Program-made: the position numbers
Virus record (IMG/VR): IMGVR_UViG_2718217859_000010
Strand: one strand, 5' to 3'
DNA: 64,000 nucleotides
Origin: a virus
Taxonomy: Duplodnaviria > Heunggongvirae > Uroviricota > Caudoviricetes
Shown here: one piece after another, positions 6,001-12,000 of the stretch
Layout of the letters: each line of letters starts with the position of its first letter
Position numbering within the stretch: the first letter of the stretch is position 1

Positions 6001-9000
6001 AGTGGAGCAAGATCAACCACTTCATTTCCGATAATCATTATTATTTATTCCTTCTTAAGATGTGAAAACAGAGTGGAAGCCTTCAAGCTGGAAGCCTTTA
6101 GCAGCGAGAGCTGCAATAGCAGCTTCTTTTACAGCGCCTTCGGCATTCAGGGCATCAGCTTTGATGCAAACGAGTCCGGCATTAGCACGAAGCACGTTAA
6201 CTGTTTTATTTGAATCAGCAGTTACGAAGTCAGACACAACGACAAGAACATCAGCGCCGCTAACATATTTAGCGCCGGATGAATCAATGAGGTCGCCGCA
6301 CGTTACATCTTGTGCAAGTGCTGCAAATTTTTTGCTTTCTACAGCCGCGTAAGGGTCGGTTGCATAGCTCACTACGTCAGTGATGCTTTTACGATGTGGG
6401 AAAACATCGCTTAATTTTAAAATAGCCATTATTTTTCCTTAGATTGTTTGATTTGTTGAGCTTTAGCATTAATCAAATCTTGGTGAGATGGTTTATTGCT
6501 TTCAGCCTTATAAAGACGTTCACACTGTTTCTTTAATTCTGTGGGAGTGATGCCAAGCGCGTAGGCTGTAGCATTCAACACATCTTCAGTTAGTGTTAAC
6601 TTTTCATTGCCATATTTCAGGATAATTTCTTGTTTCATTTATATAACGATTCCATTATGTTGGAATTTAATAAATCCCCCAGGCTATAAGAGGTTCAATC
6701 TGACAATAGCGAGGGGGATTTATTAACGTGTCGGGCAATACACAGCGATAAGTAAAACCTTGAGGAGGTTTTAAACGTATCTCTAAGAATGCTTATTAAA
6801 CATGCTTAAAGATAGGTTTAAAGGGTGAACAGATATTCCTGAAAACATGCTCTTAGGAAAACATGCGGAATCAATCAGGAATATCTATTCGGGGCGCGGT
6901 GGCTAACCGCTATCTTTCATGGTGTGGATGCACCAGTCAGATTTTAAGGAATCACTGTTCCAATCTACTCACAGATTAAATTTTAATAGGGATTAACTAC
7001 ACCAACAGTAATCTACCGTTTCAGAAAAAGCTTTTTTACAACCAAAGATTATAGATTTGCAGTCTATAAAACCCGTTTTGCTATCAATATTTCCAAAGGT
7101 TATTGCACAATTCTTAGCTAAACTCTCTCTGCTTGCGGCTAACGCTATGCAGATGATTGTTTTTGACAACAACTTAATAGATTATTCTGTTACTAACTTC
7201 TGTCATTAAATAAGAGTTTAATGATGTTAGTAAATAGTTATAAAATATAACTATCAGTGTAAGGCTCTTTAATGTTTTCGGACAAAATAAGGAGCTTTAG
7301 GATAAGCATAGATGAAAATAAGAGCGGGAAGGGCAAGGAGATAACACCTACCCGCTTTTATCAAAAATTAAGCACAATGCCTAACAACATTCATCAACAC
7401 AACGTAGAAACAATCAACAATCAAAGAGGGAGTTATGATTATTCTAAAACTTCTTGAGGGGATGGAAGGTAATATTTGTTAGAGGTTAATGCCACTCAAC
7501 CTTTGAGGCTATCACCTTCCATATGCAGGGATTTATGACAGTAGAAGGATTAACACCAGTCAAAACCTTTTTATCTACCCCTAATATTATTATATAATGA
7601 AATCGTTATAAATGCAAATGATTTTCATTATCATTTAGAGAAAATAGCACTTTTTGCTAAATCATCTACTAATTGCTGAATCTCTTCACTTGCAGCCTTT
7701 AACGTGCTGGCGGTGTCTGTGATGGTTTGAGTGCACATCTTGGCATCGTCCTCAATTAGCTCTAAATCGCTCACCAGAGAGATAAAATCGTCAAGGCTTA
7801 CATTCACCTTCATTAAGCTAATAACGCATTGAGAGAGCGTGTAATCGCATAAATCTGAATAGGCTTGATTTATTCTTGTTTGTAGTGAGATAGTCAGATC
7901 TAAAAGTTGTTCCATTGCATTGCTAATATCTTCTTCCATTATGCGGCTTCTCCTTGTAATGCATCATTAATCATATTCAATACGATGTTAAAAGGTGTCT
8001 TGAGCGTCAGCACTTCATCACGATAACGCTCTAATGCTTCGTAGTCTTCTGTTTCTTTTGCCAGTCGGATTAACTCAGCATAGTTTTTTGCATCAGACAG
8101 GATCATCTGAAATAATTGTGTTTCTTGAATATAGCCAATCATTATTTTTCCTTTTTCGAATATTTTCATTGGGCGCTTATACATACACCCATCATTTTAT
8201 TAGTTAGAACGTTTGTTAGAAGCTAATGTATCTTCTAAATGAGCCATCAGATCGACTTCCGATGCACCACCTACACAATTATTGAAAGCGTTAAATCCCA
8301 AAAAATGATGATAGGAGCTAAACCCTAAAAGTTGCCAACGCTTCAGAGTGCCATCAGAAATTATTGTTTGTTTTCTTGTTCTTGGGCGAAAGTAAACGCC
8401 TGGCATTGACTGGATTATTTCTAATTCTTCATCGCTTAAAGGTGGAGATTCTGATTCAAGAATAAAGATTATCTCTTCCCCTGGATCGTTATTGGTGTGT
8501 GTCGGTGGACGTTGTCTTTTTGAATTGAAATTACTGTTTTTTTCAATACGTTTTAAGTTATTCTTTTTCTTTCTTCCCATTTTCCCTCTTTTTATGTGGA
8601 TTATAAAAACTTGATGCCATTGTTACGATGAATATCGCCATAAATGCATTTGCCATATGTATTGCCCGATCTGTTGTTATTGATTGTTTGTGATAAACAA
8701 TTCAAAATTTTTATTTAACTTCAGAAGACGAAATGTAGTGCTGTTAATCCCTTCATAATCCAGCACACCGAACGATGTAAAATGATTTAACCAATGATTG
8801 ATGTGTTGTGCGCTGTAGCCGCCTAAACTACAAAAGCTAACCACTGTCGGTGGTGAGAACTCTATGTCCAAGACAGCTTTTAAAATGTGGTATCCGCTCT
8901 CAGTTATTTCAATAGTTTTGTTTCCTATAGTGATGTTATAAGTCATTTATTCTCCTTAGAATGGTATCGAATCGTATATTTCACTTTTTTCTCTTAGAGA

Positions 9001-12000
9001 TATTATCAGATCGTGAAAAGCCTGTTTCTCAAGATAGATATTCTTTGAATCTAATGCACGTTTTACAAAATCTTCTGTTTCTTCGTGCGGTGGTTTCTTC
9101 TTATCAAGGGAAAGAAGCCAAGTAAAAATTTCGGGCCGCTCAGGGAACTCTGATTCCTGTGTTTCTTCTTCAACGATGATTTCTGAAACATTCAATATTT
9201 CATTAGATTCGTTTTCTTTCTCAGAAGGATCAGGTAGTGATGACTCTCCAGGGGGAGTAATATGTGCATCTGTGAGAGGGAGCGCATTGTAAATCAAAGA
9301 TGAAATATATGGTTCAGGATGTGGGGATGTTTCTAATAATCCCATCTCTTTAAGATCGTTTATCTTACGTTTAATTGTTGATGCTGAAGACTTAAAAATC
9401 TTAGCTAATGTTTCGTGACTTTCATAACAATTAAGACCATTTTCCTGATAACTAAGAAATCTATAATAAAGAACAATGTGCAATAAATCTAAAACCTTAC
9501 CTTCTGGAAATTCATTAGAGTAAATCTTTGATATATTATCAAACGTGTTATAGTATTTTGTAAAAGTTGGCTGGTTTATCATTAAAAATCTCCTTATAAA
9601 TCACGCTTAATGCGCTACTAAAGTGAATGAGGATCACTTACCCTTTTTTTGTTTGATGTTCTCTGCTGCTTCAGTAATGATTTCTAACATCAAATCACTG
9701 ACCATAATTTGCCTTTTCTTGGCTTCAGCAAATAAAATCTTGAAAATTTCAGGGTCAACGTGTAGGTAAGTGCGTGGAATTGGTTTCTTGGTTTCGCTCA
9801 TAGTTTTCTCCTTCTCCTGTTATTATTCTTTCTCTGCTCCTGCCTTACGCAGTTCATCAATAATTTTTAGTGCATCGTCAAAGCATTTTTCACGCTCTGG
9901 ATAACCACAGCGTCGCGCTGTGTTCCTGTTCATCCTTACTTTAAAACGATTAATCTCACCACGTTTCCAGGCTTCTACTACATCCTGTGGTGTGAAATAT
10001 TTCATTAATTAACCTCCTATTCTATTTGGTTAAAAGAAAAAACACCTTGCAAGCCTTGTTGGGCTTCAAAGTGCGGTGCATTGGTTTAATTACTTAGAGG
10101 ATAAGAATGTTTTCTGTCCCTAATATTACTTTACCACGACTAAAGGCTTTTGTCAACCCCTAGCCATATAAATATTGATCATTTTCAGTAAGTTATGATA
10201 TTTCTTAGCAATTCGTGCTCTTCTGTGTAGTGCTATTCTTCATTATCCGCTAAAACGCTCTAAAACGCGTTCTAACGAAGTTTTGATAAATACAATACAT
10301 TCCCTTATGTAGAGGCTGTTTAGCTCGCCTACGGCTTGATTTAAGCGGTAGAAACTTATTTAACCTTCAACTACTAAAACCATTCTTTCTTTTTTGTTTG
10401 TTGTTGGTTGTTGTCTGTGTCTATGTGCTAACATCGCTAACGCGTAGCACACAAGGTTATTGCACAAGTAAATTTCAATCGTTAGATGGTAGTTAGTTAA
10501 TTATCGTTCTGCGCACAGCGCAAGACTATTTAGCCTTACGCAAGCCGTAGGCTATTTGCACATAGTAGATTACATATTCGTTGTGAGCGGCATTAGCGAA
10601 CATAGATCTACTAACTAACATCAACAAACAAAAAACTATGTGTTATGACAAGCAGTCTAACGACTAACACTCTAACTTGTGCAAGGTTCTGGCGAATGCC
10701 AATAGATTAAGGGATAGTCGAAGACTCCCCTAACGGGTATCCCTATAATTATTCTTATAAAGATAAAAAAGAATTATATTATATAGTTTAATAGTTAGTT
10801 TTATTATTAGTATTATCGTTAGTCTTATTGTGGTTCAAATTGACCTACCCCCTAGCTCACAGTGACCTACCCCCTAGCTCACAGTGACCTACCGTTACAT
10901 CCATTTATCACATAACATCTGTGCAATGATCTTCTAAAAGTGTTTCTTGCTACCAAAATTAAACATCTAAAACAGGCTTAAATTCAATGTAATTGATGAT
11001 TAATCCCTGTGTAATTCCTACGTAAAAATTCAATGAAAAGTAGCTTAAAAGTGCAATGTTAGCTTTCTTCACTTTTACATCACTTTCGCTGCGCCTTGTG
11101 TAATGCGGCATATAGCGCATCACTGCAAAATTGTTGCTCAATAAACGTTCTATCATTTGTCGAACAAGTTTCTTTAATGCAACAAAAAATTATTTTTTCA
11201 AAATAAACACACTATTTAATAGCTTGCTAATTTTACCAAAACGTAACTACATGATTCTCATGCAAGACGTGTAGTGATAAAGCAGGCTAAATCACCACAC
11301 TAAAAACCTTCGAATTTCGTAGTGAAAAAAGTCCTTTACACGCCTAATCAACACGATCAATAATCACTACACACAAATCAACACAGAAGGAAAATGAAAA
11401 TGGCTAATATTGGATATATAAGGGTGTCGACTGTCCAACAAAACACAGACCGTCAATTAGCTGGAGTAACTCTTGATAAAGTCTTTGAAGATAAAGCGTC
11501 AGGCAAGAATACCCAGCGCCCACAGTTTGAGGCAATGATGAACTATGTGCGGGAAGGTGATGTTGTGCATGTTCACAGTATTGATCGCCTTTGCCGTAAT
11601 ACAGCCGACCTACTGGCAACGGTTGAGCAATTAACAGAGCGCGGCGTGTCTGTGCATTTCCATAAAGAAGACTTTAAGACAGGGAAGAACTCTCCCGCAG
11701 GGAATATGATGCTCACAGTGCTTGCAGCAGTGGCACAAATGGAACGTGAAATGATGCTTGAGCGGCAACGTGAGGGGATCGCCGCAGCTAAGGCCGCTGG
11801 ACGTATAGCAAAACGTGGTAATGGAAAAGCAATTGATCGAGCGGGAATTGTTGCCGCTCTCGCGAATGGTGGATCAATTCGGAGCGTAGCAAAAGATTTC
11901 AGTGTCAGCACACAGACGGTGCAACGTATCAAGAAAGAGCAGGAAGCGTAATGCCTCCTGATATTTGAGAATTGTCGCTGCGTGGACCTGACGCCGCTGA

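What the first reader, a model, noticed from the sequence alone, without database searches (positions are those of the whole stretch)
7631..9582. AT-rich five-gene operon of unrecognised proteins inside the left element
Five tightly packed minus-strand genes (208, 89, 126, 81 and 102 aa) have overlapping or near-abutting stops and starts and much lower GC than surrounding DNA. Only the first shows a winged-helix-like DNA-binding segment; the others have no motif I can place. Compact operons of small unknown proteins in integrative elements often encode regulatory, interference or defence functions.
Basis: seen in the sequence. Interest (0 to 1): 0.6.

Follow-up and report, generated by a model that had tools for sequence, protein, structure and literature searches.

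The report
Replication operon of an E. coli phage satellite
The five genes are most of the early operon of a 12.7 kb E. coli island from a family already predicted to parasitise large virulent phages; the first gene most likely starts the island's DNA replication, and the other four are conserved but of unknown function.

Summary
The five ORFs exist exactly as described. They are the last five genes of a seven-gene leftward operon in a 12.7 kb island flanked by 20-bp repeats of the thrW 3' end.

The island belongs to the roughly 13 kb family of putative E. coli satellites described bioinformatically by Barth et al. 2023 (PMC10448857). These carry their own decoration, capsid, tape-measure and baseplate genes, related to virulent Stephanstirmvirinae phages.

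Gene 1 (208 aa) is the RepA-type initiator. It has a swappable winged-helix domain, a disordered acidic linker, a three-helix domain and a tail ending YDSIPF. Its DNA-binding domain type covaries across 28 loci with 22-bp-period repeats about 1.3 kb upstream. In the window these lie at 10840-10893, beside the most AT-rich 80 bp of window 6400-11400. [quoted passage not shown]

Gene 2 is a second winged-helix protein. Genes 3-5 match no known family. Genes 1-3 and the acidic gene-5 family keep their order in relatives whose RepA is only 31-44% identical; gene 4 was found in only one of three such relatives.

Apparently new here: the iteron origin, the SSB-like tail, satellites matching the phage nuclease's "second" domain, and a conserved leader terminator. 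This is a member of a known kind, of moderate interest.

The parts
8956..9582 (-). Gene 1, repA-like initiator (208 aa). It has a type-A winged-helix DNA-binding domain (about residues 1-110), the hinge ALPLTDAHITPP, a disordered acidic linker (111-146), a three-helix C-domain (149-199) and the tail YDSIPF.
   Evidence: HTH_36 scores 23.6 bits, just under the 25-bit cut-off, and matches PHROG replication-initiator N-terminal regions at 5e-8. The AF2 model shows these domains. The domain is modular across homologues and the tail is conserved. The binding-domain type covaries with the upstream repeats. The family's RepA is described in PMC10448857.
8677..8946 (-). Gene 2 (89 aa), a small protein that is probably a winged helix. 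It is absent from some islands.
   Evidence: hhalign against the RepA N-domain gives 73%, E 3e-5. The lineage-B counterpart L4_92 aligns at 85%, E 6e-6. It is found in distant islands at hmmsearch 3e-10 to 3e-19. It is missing from L003, L025 and L028.
8200..8580 (-). Gene 3 (126 aa). It has a basic disordered N-terminus, an acidic EEIIFILE..SP..L(S/T)..EE block, and a conserved Y-x-(K/R)-P-R-x-(R/I)-K ... WQ..GF..Y..(Y/F) core. Function unknown.
   Evidence: Only 53 clusters exist, all from Escherichia or Enterobacteriaceae. It is homologous to L4_136 (hhalign 98.6%). It is found in distant islands at 8e-20 to 3e-27. The AF2 model is poor, pLDDT 58, and gives no fold match.
7939..8184 (-). 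Gene 4 (81 aa as an ORF; RefSeq aa at 7939-8142), a small helical protein of unknown function.
   Evidence: There is no family match. A weak relative occurs in distant island L039 (5e-4). It is absent from lineage-B islands.
7631..7939 (-). Gene 5 (102 aa, pI 4.05), an acidic helical protein of unknown function that ends the operon.
   Evidence: 137 clusters exist, all from Escherichia, and some sources mislabel them 'transporter'. A distant-island protein, L039_100, matches both this family (8e-3) and the lineage-B acidic protein L4_111 (6e-6), which links the two families.
9634..9801 (-). Upstream operon gene, 55 aa. From the sequence it looks like a ribbon-helix-helix protein.
   Evidence: It differs by one residue from phage muut gp095. 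Window 9572-9813 is 97.9% identical at DNA level to muut. The ribbon-helix-helix reading is my inference from the sequence; no profile hit supports it.
9823..10005 (-). First gene of the operon, 60 aa and basic (pI 9.3). Function unknown.
   Evidence: It is conserved at this position in nearly all loci.
10128..10156 (-). Promoter-like site of the early operon, TTGACA-17-TAAAGT with a TG extension.
   Evidence: It is the best site on the minus strand. The -35 box is invariant in all 27 loci aligned.
10031..10074 (-). Terminator-like hairpin plus U-run in the leader, conserved, lying between the promoter and the first gene.
   Evidence: The fold is (z -2.1 for the 103-nt leader). It is conserved with loop variation in all 27 loci aligned. 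A role in gating transcription is inferred, not shown.
10835..10900 (-). Iteron array: three copies of GGTAGGTCAC(TGTGAGCTAGGG) at a 22-bp period, with cores at 10840, 10862 and 10884.
   Evidence: The repeat type covaries with the RepA binding-domain type across 28 loci. Distant islands carry different 22-bp-period arrays at the same position.
10744..10823 (.). AT-rich stretch next to the iterons, the putative DNA-unwinding element.
   Evidence: At 12.5% GC it is the lowest 80-bp window in 6400-11400. No DnaA box occurs in 10006-11393.
2057..6638 (-). Late (structural) operon of the island: 69 aa, 124 aa in the decoration-protein position, capsid protein 342 aa, 91/66 aa, tape-measure-like 613 aa and Dit-like 225 aa.
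   Evidence: Pfam gives Phage_cap_E at 3e-18 and Dit_like at 1.6e-27. Homology to phage inny: capsid protein 23% (E 5e-10), tape measure 26% (E 2e-23), Dit 49% (E 5e-62). The order matches phage ESCO5.
528..1976 (+). Tyrosine integrase of the island.
   Evidence: Pfam Phage_integrase at 3e-17. RefSeq aa.
537..556 (.). Left attachment repeat, ATGGTGCCGATAATAGGAGT.
   Evidence: It forms a 20-bp direct repeat with 13259-13278, which is the 3' end of thrW.
13259..13278 (.). Right attachment repeat, inside a partial thrW copy at 13260-13305.
   Evidence: ARAGORN finds no complete tRNA in the window.

Best explanation
The five genes are genes 3-7 of the seven-gene early operon of a 12.7 kb island integrated at thrW. 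The island belongs to the family of about 13 kb putative E. coli phage satellites described by Barth et al. 2023. These islands carry their own decoration-like, capsid, tape-measure and Dit/baseplate genes, and appear to parasitise about 150 kb virulent myophages of the Stephanstirmvirinae (Phapecoctavirus and Justusliebigvirus).

Gene 1 is the satellite's RepA-type initiator. Its N-terminal winged helix would bind the three 22-bp-period iterons at 10840-10893. The neighbouring stretch at 12.5% GC would then open. The conserved C-terminal part would recruit replication proteins. I propose, as an inference, that recruitment works through the C-terminal tail (..YDSIPF or ..DFDIPF). This tail resembles the E. 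coli SSB tip DDDIPF, which docks primase, PriA, the chi subunit and other partners.

The binding-domain and iteron pairs are swapped between islands under pressure from phage Odn-like nucleases that copy the same binding domains.

Gene 2 is a second, optional winged-helix protein. Genes 3-5 have unknown biochemistry. The most likely role for them is manipulation of the helper phage or control of the late operon.

What was shown here: the gene structure, the conservation, the domain architecture, the covariation and the homologies to phage genes. What is inferred: DNA binding, origin firing, the function of the tail, induction by the phage, and any role for genes 2-5.
For: Island and family:
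- The boundaries and gene content match the published family.
- The tape-measure and Dit genes are about 38% identical to phapecoctavirus genes in the same order. The capsid, tape-measure and Dit proteins are homologous to inny proteins.

Gene 1 as initiator:
- Its N-terminus matches replication-initiator N-terminal profiles.
- The AF2 model shows a winged helix (pLDDT about 88), a disordered linker, a three-helix domain and a disordered tail.
- Fold matches include the RepA_N initiators 5kbj, 4pql and 4pt7 and the DnaD N-domain.

Covariation with the repeats:
- All 15 type-A loci carry 2-6 direct GGTAGGTCAC repeats.
- 6/6 type-B loci carry ACAGAAAACTGT repeats.
- 4/4 type-D loci carry GGAAATGAGTTCC repeats.
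- 5/5 type-C and type-E loci carry GGTAGTAACGAT repeats.
- The pairing holds whichever version of the intervening 55-aa gene, of the downstream operon, or of the capsid module is present.
- Distant islands have their own 22-bp-period arrays in the same position.
- The iterons adjoin the AT-richest 80 bp of window 6400-11400.

Arms race with the phages:
- The phage proteins have two HTH_36 domains plus a MUG113/T5orf172 nuclease domain.
- Their binding domains are 88-100% identical to satellite types B, C, D and E.
- A 97 kb metagenomic contig closely matching inny carries type A.
- The inny genome has no copy of the type-C or type-D repeat motifs.
- This matches the experimentally shown PLE RepA / ori / Odn system and the published inference for E. 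coli.

Tail:
- Every full-length close homologue but one ends in [IL]PF; that one ends in LPY.
- The tail is kept on at least three unrelated C-domains and in distant family representatives, as DFDIPF, DPIPF or FEIPF.
- The SSB tip is DDDIPF (PMC5872125 abstract).

Operon unit:
- The order is the same in 28 loci.
- The RepA, gene-2-like and gene-3-like trio plus a terminal acidic protein is found in islands whose RepA is 31-44% identical.
Against: - There is no experimental evidence for binding, replication, induction or packaging.
- Gene 1 does not reach any Pfam gathering score. HTH_36 scores 23.6 against a cut-off of 25, and RepA_N does not match by hmmscan.
- The fold matches are weak (E >= 4e-3) and are led by MarR-type regulators.
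- Many of the 28 loci are close relatives, so the covariation counts are not independent events.
- The iterons lie about 690 bp upstream of the operon promoter, and binding there was not tested.
- The tail has fewer acidic residues than SSB (YDSIPF against DDDIPF). Two distant family members lack it, and some end in TPF, VPF, DPF, IKF or IAF.
- No partner of the tail was tested.
- Genes 2-5 have no homologue in phage inny and no informative model. Any role proposed for them is a guess.
Confidence: 0.75

Rival explanations
1. Gene 1 is a transcription factor, either repressor or activator, and the upstream repeats are its operators or enhancer. On this reading the operon is a regulatory module and not a replication module.
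For: RefSeq names it 'transcriptional regulator' or 'helix-turn-helix domain-containing protein'. The best fold matches are MarR-family regulators. PADLOC and NCBIfam hits are to the HTH parts of CRISPR-associated regulators.
Against: - The repeats have a 22-bp period, abut a stretch of 12.5% GC, and lie about 690 bp from the only strong promoter. That is an origin-like layout.
- The profile hits are specifically to replication-initiator N-terminal regions.
- Phage nucleases that copy the binding domain fit an essential cis site such as an origin, as shown for PLE.
- An acidic linker and an SSB-like tail are not features of MarR-type regulators.
Confidence: 0.12
2. The block, or genes 3-5 within it, is a self-contained anti-phage defence or toxin-antitoxin-like system carried as cargo by the island.
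For: The proteins are small, fast-evolving and restricted to Escherichia. Two alternative gene sets occur at the end of the operon. Satellites such as PLE do block their helper phage.
Against: - There is no PADLOC hit beyond generic HTH matches.
- The genes are not variable cargo. Genes 2 and 3 and the acidic last gene are core, syntenic parts of every island examined, including distant ones.
- They are co-transcribed with repA between the replication and structural modules.
Confidence: 0.1
3. The island is a decaying remnant of a prophage and the five ORFs are no longer functional.
For: The island lacks portal, terminase, sheath, tube and most baseplate genes. IS1 and IS2 insertions occur in some copies.
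Against: - The ORFs are intact in the same order in hundreds of genomes, at several att sites and with different integrases.
- The protein families are conserved down to 25-45% identity.
- Present-day virulent phages carry binding domains 88-100% identical to the satellite ones, and 97.9% identical DNA. This points to ongoing interaction.
Confidence: 0.04

Closest known systems
[quoted passage not shown]
   Same: - Size is about 13 kb, with a tyrosine integrase next to a tRNA att site.
- The islands carry decoration, capsid, tape-measure and baseplate-component genes and lack terminase, protease and adaptor genes.
- RepA has a modular N-terminal DNA-binding domain.
- The same three phages carry nucleases with two RepA_N-type domains and a T5orf172 domain.
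- I reached the same picture independently before finding the paper.
   Different: The paper does not mention iterons, an origin or an SSB-like tail for these elements, and its main text does not discuss the small genes downstream of repA.

It states that the second RepA_N domain of each odn homologue has no detectable satellite counterpart. I find islands (L019-L022) whose RepA domain is 88-89% identical to it.

The window's type-A domain matches none of the three phages. It does match a metagenomic inny-like contig.
Vibrio cholerae PLE RepA / ori module and ICP1 Odn (Barth et al. 2021, eLife, PMC8263062)
   Same: - The satellite of a virulent myophage has an initiator whose N-terminal DNA-binding domain covaries with iterons in a noncoding region.
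- The C-terminal part is conserved and presumed to recruit the replisome.
- Domains have been swapped repeatedly.
- The phage carries a chimeric nuclease with a copied binding domain and a T5orf172-type domain.
   Different: - No sequence homology between PLE and this island was tested or found here.
- The PLE iterons are about 30 bp and semi-palindromic; here the period is 22 bp.
- This island encodes its own capsid, tape-measure and Dit proteins.
- The PLE system is proven experimentally. Everything here is inferred from sequence.
Iteron-type initiators with winged-helix domains (RepA_N of staphylococcal plasmids, lambda O, the DnaD N-domain and phage replisome organisers)
   Same: The N-terminal winged helix gives PHROG replication-initiator hits. 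Fold matches include 5kbj, 4pql, 4pt7 and 2v79. The layout of direct repeats next to an AT-rich region is the same.
   Different: No Pfam model of these families reaches its cut-off. The C-terminal half is unrelated to them. The island encodes no helicase, loader or primase.
E. coli SSB C-terminal tip (DDDIPF, SSB-Ct)
   Same: The protein ends in IPF or LPF preceded by acidic residues, after a disordered acidic linker. SSB-Ct is the docking peptide for primase and at least 17 partner proteins (abstracts of PMC5872125 and PMC10018359).
   Different: The protein has no OB fold and is not an SSB. The window's tail has only one acidic residue in its last six positions (YDSIPF). The other lineage's tail (EDFDIPF) is closer to SSB. 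Binding to any partner was not tested.
Capsid-forming PICIs (cfPICI)
   Same: It is a chromosomal island of similar size that encodes its own capsid protein.
   Different: It lacks terminase, prohead protease, an alpA homologue, head-tail adaptors and Pri-Rep. The same point is made in PMC10448857. It also carries tail genes, for tape measure and Dit.

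Membership tests
Putative E. coli satellites of Stephanstirmvirinae phages (PMC10448857) | An element of about 13 kb bounded by att repeats, with a tyrosine integrase next to a tRNA site | tested here: met
   20-bp direct repeats at 537-556 and 13259-13278, which are the 3' end of thrW. The integrase is at 528-1976.
Putative E. coli satellites of Stephanstirmvirinae phages (PMC10448857) | Own decoration and capsid genes plus tape-measure and baseplate-component genes, without terminase, protease or adaptor genes | tested here: met
   Phage_cap_E and Dit_like hits. The tape-measure and Dit genes are homologous to phage genes. The ORF list of the island shows no other structural genes.
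Putative E. coli satellites of Stephanstirmvirinae phages (PMC10448857) | A RepA with a modular N-terminal DNA-binding domain that is homologous to a domain of a phage T5orf172-type nuclease | tested here: met
   There are five N-domain types. Types B, C, D and E are 88-100% identical to domains in inny, muut and Mt1B1_P17. The window's type A is found in an inny-like metagenomic contig. The nuclease domain scores MUG113 at 21-22.5 bits against a cut-off of 22.3.
Phage satellite (functional class) | Excision, replication and packaging that depend on a helper phage | not testable with these tools
   Only indirect evidence is available: homology to helper structural genes and arms-race signatures.
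RepA_N / HTH_36 winged-helix initiator domain | A match to the family profile above its curated cut-off | tested here: not met
   For the window protein HTH_36 scores 23.6 bits against a cut-off of 25, and RepA_N does not match by hmmscan. Many close homologues and the phage proteins do pass HTH_36. The paper reports RepA_N by HHsearch.
RepA_N / HTH_36 winged-helix initiator domain | A winged-helix fold like that of the solved initiators | tested here: inconclusive
   The model has a confident winged helix. Foldseek finds RepA_N initiators and the DnaD N-domain, but at E >= 1.6e-2 and mixed with MarR regulators.
Iteron-type replication origin | Tandem direct repeats next to an AT-rich unwinding region, specific to the cognate initiator | tested here: met
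   Three repeats at a 22-bp period next to a stretch of 12.5% GC. The repeat type covaries with the binding-domain type. Distant islands have analogous arrays. Binding itself is not testable here.
SSB-Ct-type docking tail | An extreme C-terminus of acidic residues followed by I/L-P-F, on a disordered segment | tested here: met
   The tail is ..EIYDSIPF in the window and ..EDFDIPF, DPIPF or FEIPF in relatives. Residues 204-208 are disordered in the model.
SSB-Ct-type docking tail | Binding to the pockets of SSB-interacting proteins (PriA, DnaG, chi, ExoI, RecQ and others) | not testable with these tools
   No complex prediction or assay was available.
Known anti-phage defence systems (PADLOC) | A match of any of the five proteins to a defence-system model | tested here: not met
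   Gene 1 gives only generic HTH matches, and genes 2-5 give none.
cfPICI / PICI / P4-like satellites | Hallmark genes: alpA, Pri-Rep, TerS, protease and portal for PICIs; psu, sid, delta and alpha for P4 | tested here: not met
   No such Pfam, PHROG or NCBIfam hits among the island's proteins.

The most novel reading that the evidence does not exclude
The satellite's RepA carries a true mimic of the host SSB C-terminal tip. Once bound at the iterons, it would use this tail to recruit proteins that normally dock on SSB, such as PriA, the DnaG primase or the chi subunit of the clamp loader, and so assemble a replisome without DnaA or any helicase loader of its own. Alternatively, the tail could titrate those proteins away from the helper phage. 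On this reading the conserved partners, genes 2, 3 and 5, are new protein families that act with RepA in replication or in taking over the helper.
Probability: 0.3. Interest if true: 0.7.

Novelty: new member of a known kind. Interest (0 to 1): 0.5.

Why it matters
This window gives a concrete, annotated example of the E. coli counterpart of the Vibrio PLE / ICP1 system, in an organism where genetics is easy. For this example the analysis adds several things:
- a candidate origin of three 22-bp-period iterons next to an unwinding element;
- a map of which RepA binding domain goes with which repeat;
- a testable idea for replisome recruitment through the SSB-like tail;
- a set of conserved small genes of unknown function, which are the obvious candidates for helper takeover.

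The results also extend the published arms race. Satellites exist that match the "second" binding domain of the phage nucleases. A phage variant exists that carries this window's domain type.

All of this rests on sequence analysis only.

Tried and rejected
- Profile searches of genes 2-5, and of their distant relatives, gave nothing usable in Pfam, PHROGs, NCBIfam or PADLOC.
- PDB sequence searches of all five proteins gave nothing credible. One chance-level hit of gene 4 to a biotin ligase (E 9e-4) was not pursued.
- The AF2 model of gene 3 was poor (pLDDT 58) and Foldseek found nothing (E >= 3).
- Rfam found no RNA family in window 1-14000.
- tblastn of the five proteins against 50,697 phage records found only the inny hit to gene 1. 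Against plasmids it found two records.
- hmmsearch of the gene 2-5 families against all inny ORFs found nothing better than E 0.06.
- I looked for the satellite iteron motifs in phage inny, expecting to find a phage origin. There were none, which fits a nuclease aimed at the satellite.
- I looked for an inny protein ending in IPF that the tail might mimic, such as a phage SSB. None was found.
- There is no DnaA box near the iterons.
- I first read the capsid gene as lambda-like and considered a lambdoid helper. I dropped this once the tape-measure and Dit genes matched phapecoctaviruses.
- Seven early literature searches did not find the family. The last search led to PMC10448857.

Full report
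**Observation.** The five minus-strand ORFs are present at exactly the stated coordinates. Spacers between them are 9, 96 and 15 nt, then a 1-nt overlap, and Shine-Dalgarno-like sequences precede the starts. RefSeq annotations of near-identical copies call the same genes, with the fourth starting at an internal ATG and giving 67 aa.

GC of the five genes is 35.4%. The island's structural genes are at 43.1% and window 20000-64000 is at 51.2%. The AT-rich block is wider than the five genes, about 6.4-11.4 kb.

Two more small genes lie upstream on the same strand: 60 aa at 9823-10005 and 55 aa at 9634-9801. They sit behind the best promoter-like site on that strand, TTGACA-17-TAAAGT at 10128-10156. 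The operon therefore has seven genes.

**Context.** The window is E. coli. Parts of the block occur in 661-724 of 5,426 complete genomes. At least 80% of the query is covered in 115 of those genomes for the 2.7 kb query and 126 for the 5 kb query.

The island is bounded by a 20-bp direct repeat, ATGGTGCCGATAATAGGAGT, at 537-556 and 13259-13278. This is the 3' end of thrW. Only a partial tRNA copy remains at the right end (13260-13305), and another insertion follows it.

Gene content of the island:
- a tyrosine integrase;
- a late operon of 69 aa, 124 aa, a Phage_cap_E capsid protein of 342 aa, 91/66 aa, a 613-aa protein and a Dit-like protein of 225 aa;
- a 1 kb noncoding gap;
- the early operon;
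- 1.4 kb of noncoding DNA;
- a small serine recombinase.

The same architecture occurs at a tRNA-Gly site with a different integrase.

**Relation to virulent phages.** The 613-aa and Dit-like proteins are about 38% identical to the tape-measure protein and its downstream neighbour in about 150 kb Phapecoctavirus phages. In phage ESCO5 the order scaffold, decoration, capsid ... tape measure, Dit mirrors the order in the island. Against phage inny the capsid protein is 23% identical (E 5e-10), the tape measure 26% (E 2e-23) and Dit 49% (E 5e-62). The GC of inny is 37.4%, close to that of the operon.

**Gene 1.**
- *Profile and structure.* The N-terminus matches HTH_36 just below its cut-off and matches PHROG replication-initiator N-terminal regions. 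The AF2 model shows a confident winged helix (about residues 1-110), a disordered acidic linker (111-146), a three-helix domain (149-199) and a disordered tail. Foldseek matches are weak. They mix MarR regulators with the RepA_N initiators 5kbj, 4pql and 4pt7 and the DnaD N-domain.
- *Family.* The family is tiny, with 34 representatives among 1.84 billion proteins, and it is modular. It shows five N-domain types (A-E), an invariant hinge ALPLTDAHITPP and at least three different C-domains.

**Origin.** About 1.3-1.8 kb upstream of repA, every locus has direct repeats whose sequence follows the N-domain type:

| N-domain type | Repeat | Loci |
|---|---|---|
| A | GGTAGGTCAC, 2-6 copies, 22-bp period | all 15 |
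| B | ACAGAAAACTGT | 6/6 |
| D | GGAAATGAGTTCC | 4/4 |
| C and E | GGTAGTAACGAT | 5/5 |

One composite locus, L016, carries both type-A and type-D repeats. The pairing holds across two versions of the intervening 55-aa gene, two operon lineages and two capsid modules. This argues for functional coupling and against mere linkage, although many of the loci are close relatives.

In the window the three repeats (cores at 10840, 10862 and 10884) abut the AT-richest 80 bp of window 6400-11400, which is 10744-10823 at 12.5% GC. There is no DnaA box. Distant islands have their own 22-bp-period arrays at the same position.

**Arms race.** Phages inny, muut, Mt1B1_P17 and BI-EHEC encode proteins of 321-367 aa. 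Each has a variable winged helix (type C, E or B), a constant type-D winged helix and a C-terminal domain. That C-terminal domain matches MUG113 at its cut-off and T5orf172 weakly.

Identity to the satellite domains is 100% for type B, 88% for C, 88-89% for D and 89% for E. Window 9572-9813, which covers the 55-aa gene and the spacer, is 97.9% identical at DNA level to muut. The inny genome has no copy of the type-C or type-D repeat motifs.

The window's type A has no counterpart among the isolated phages in the collection searched here. However, a 97 kb metagenomic contig that is 98-99% identical to inny carries type A followed by type D.

This is the logic shown experimentally for PLE RepA, its origin and ICP1 Odn.

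**Prior publication.** After reaching this picture I found that it is already published. Barth, Dunham and Seed 2023 (PMC10448857) identified the odn homologues of Inny, Muut and Mt1B1_P17. They also identified 224 putative E. coli satellites of about 13 kb with decoration, capsid, tape-measure and baseplate genes and a modular RepA.

The paper does not mention iterons, an origin or an SSB-like tail for these elements. It states that the second binding domain of the nucleases has no satellite counterpart. Islands L019-L022 do carry that domain type.

**Tail.** Every full-length close homologue but one ends in YDS[IL]PF or (D/E)DFD[IL]PF; that one ends in YDSLPY. More distant members with unrelated C-domains end in DFDIPF, DPIPF or FEIPF. 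Others end in TPF, VPF, DPF, IKF or IAF, and two lack the motif.

The E. coli SSB tip is DDDIPF. It docks primase and at least 17 partner proteins (abstracts seen). I found no report of an initiator with such a tail. That the tail recruits SSB partners is my inference.

**Genes 2-5.**
- *Gene 2.* It aligns to the RepA winged helix (hhalign 73%, E 3e-5). It is missing from some islands.
- *Gene 3.* Its family has 53 clusters, all enterobacterial. It has a disordered basic N-terminus and a conserved core. The model was poor and no fold match was found.
- *Genes 4 and 5.* Both are small helical proteins, and gene 5 has pI 4.05. The gene-5 family has 137 clusters, all from Escherichia.
- *Second lineage.* This lineage has 230, 92, 136 and 111-aa genes. 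The 92 and 136-aa genes are remote homologues of genes 2 and 3 (hhalign 85% and 98.6%).
- *Distant islands.* In L039, L040 and L042, RepA is 31-44% identical to the window's over the aligned N-terminal region (56% in L039). The order RepA, gene-2-like, gene-3-like is kept (hmmsearch 1e-10 to 1e-27). An acidic terminal protein there links the gene-5 family and the 111-aa family. Gene 4 has a weak relative only in L039.
- *Searches.* None of these proteins matches any profile library, PDB sequence or inny ORF.

The unit is therefore conserved, but its biochemistry is unknown. A role in handling the helper phage or in controlling the late operon is a guess based on position and on the satellite context.

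**Regulation.** A terminator-like hairpin with a U-run (10031-10074) lies between the promoter and the first gene. It is conserved in all 27 loci aligned, with variation in the loop. This suggests that the operon is gated by termination, but that was not tested.

**Verdict.** The block is the replication and early operon of a member of a known, bioinformatically described satellite family. Gene 1 is its RepA, paired with an iteron origin identified here. Genes 2-5 are conserved unknowns. The candidate origin, the SSB-like tail, the type-D satellites, the phage variant carrying type A and the leader terminator appear to be additions to what is published. Everything here rests on sequence analysis.

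Noticed in passing
window 10031-10074 (minus strand): A terminator-like hairpin with a U-run sits in the leader between the strong promoter (10128-10156) and the first operon gene. It is conserved in all 27 loci aligned. It could make a short RNA or gate the operon by antitermination.
   Followed up: partly
window 9572-9813; L034 2501-2742 (phage muut): The 55-aa gene and the spacer before repA are 97.9% identical at DNA level to virulent phage muut. The protein differs by one residue from muut gp095. In the phages this gene sits directly upstream of the Odn-like nuclease gene, so it seems to have moved together with the binding domain.
   Followed up: partly
L019-L022 (IMG/VR loci), repA at about 9956-10624 in L019: The RepA N-domain of these islands is 88-89% identical to the constant 'second' winged helix of the phage Odn-like proteins. 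Their upstream repeats (GGAAATGAGTTCC, three copies) are of a matching distinct type. PMC10448857 states that this second domain has no detectable satellite counterpart.
   Followed up: yes
L018 (IMGVR_UViG_3300045988_074297), about 10001-10511: This 97 kb metagenomic contig is 98-99% identical to phage inny. Where inny has a type-C binding domain, the contig carries the window's type-A domain followed by type D. The gene is cut by the contig end.
   Followed up: partly
L016 (IMG/VR locus), about 1.7-2.1 kb upstream of repA: One type-A island carries both type-A repeats (six copies) and type-D repeats (three copies), giving a composite array.
   Followed up: no
L040 10828-11193 (GCA_000957525.1): A distant island has an extra 121-aa gene directly after repA. 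It is a stand-alone copy of the RepA-type winged helix, 38% identical to the window's, without linker, C-domain or tail. It could be a competitor or a decoy.
   Followed up: no
window 8200-8580; phage inny 24726-24986 (inny_51): The conserved core of gene 3 (GF..Y.H..GF...N...N) shows a weak resemblance to a small hypothetical inny protein located among nucleotide-metabolism genes. hmmsearch gives E 0.058 against the inny ORFs, and blastp with L4_136 gives 48% identity over 25 aa. It may be chance.
   Followed up: partly
window 6639-7630: A 1 kb AT-rich noncoding gap separates the early and late operons. It has a promoter-like site just after gene 5 (7589-7618) and a strong 21-bp-arm hairpin (6667-6726) immediately before the first late gene. 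Rfam finds nothing there.
   Followed up: no
window 11394-11951 (plus strand): A small serine recombinase (185 aa, Resolvase at 9e-39) lies inside the AT-rich noncoding region at 50.6% GC. It is conserved in many islands. PMC10448857 mentions a serine recombinase as alternative integration machinery in a subset of the elements.
   Followed up: no
L001, L008, L020-L022, L025-L030 versus the window 5010-6429: The capsid module comes in two versions. Many islands lack a tblastn match to the window's capsid and 124-aa proteins and carry a different gene of similar size at the same position.
   Followed up: no
proteins P0167 and P0168: Some E. coli copies encode a fusion of the N-terminal half of gene 3 (up to PGVYFRP) to gene 4. 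This is apparently a deletion between short similar sequences.
   Followed up: no
window 13306-16393: Just beyond the right att repeat, homology to the thrW locus of other strains stops. An IS66-family element follows (13778-16393, with TnpB_IS66 and DDE_Tnp_IS66). This suggests that a second insertion occupies the tRNA site in tandem.
   Followed up: no
window 10959-11156 (minus strand): An unannotated 65-aa ORF lies just upstream of the iteron array. It was not examined further.
   Followed up: no
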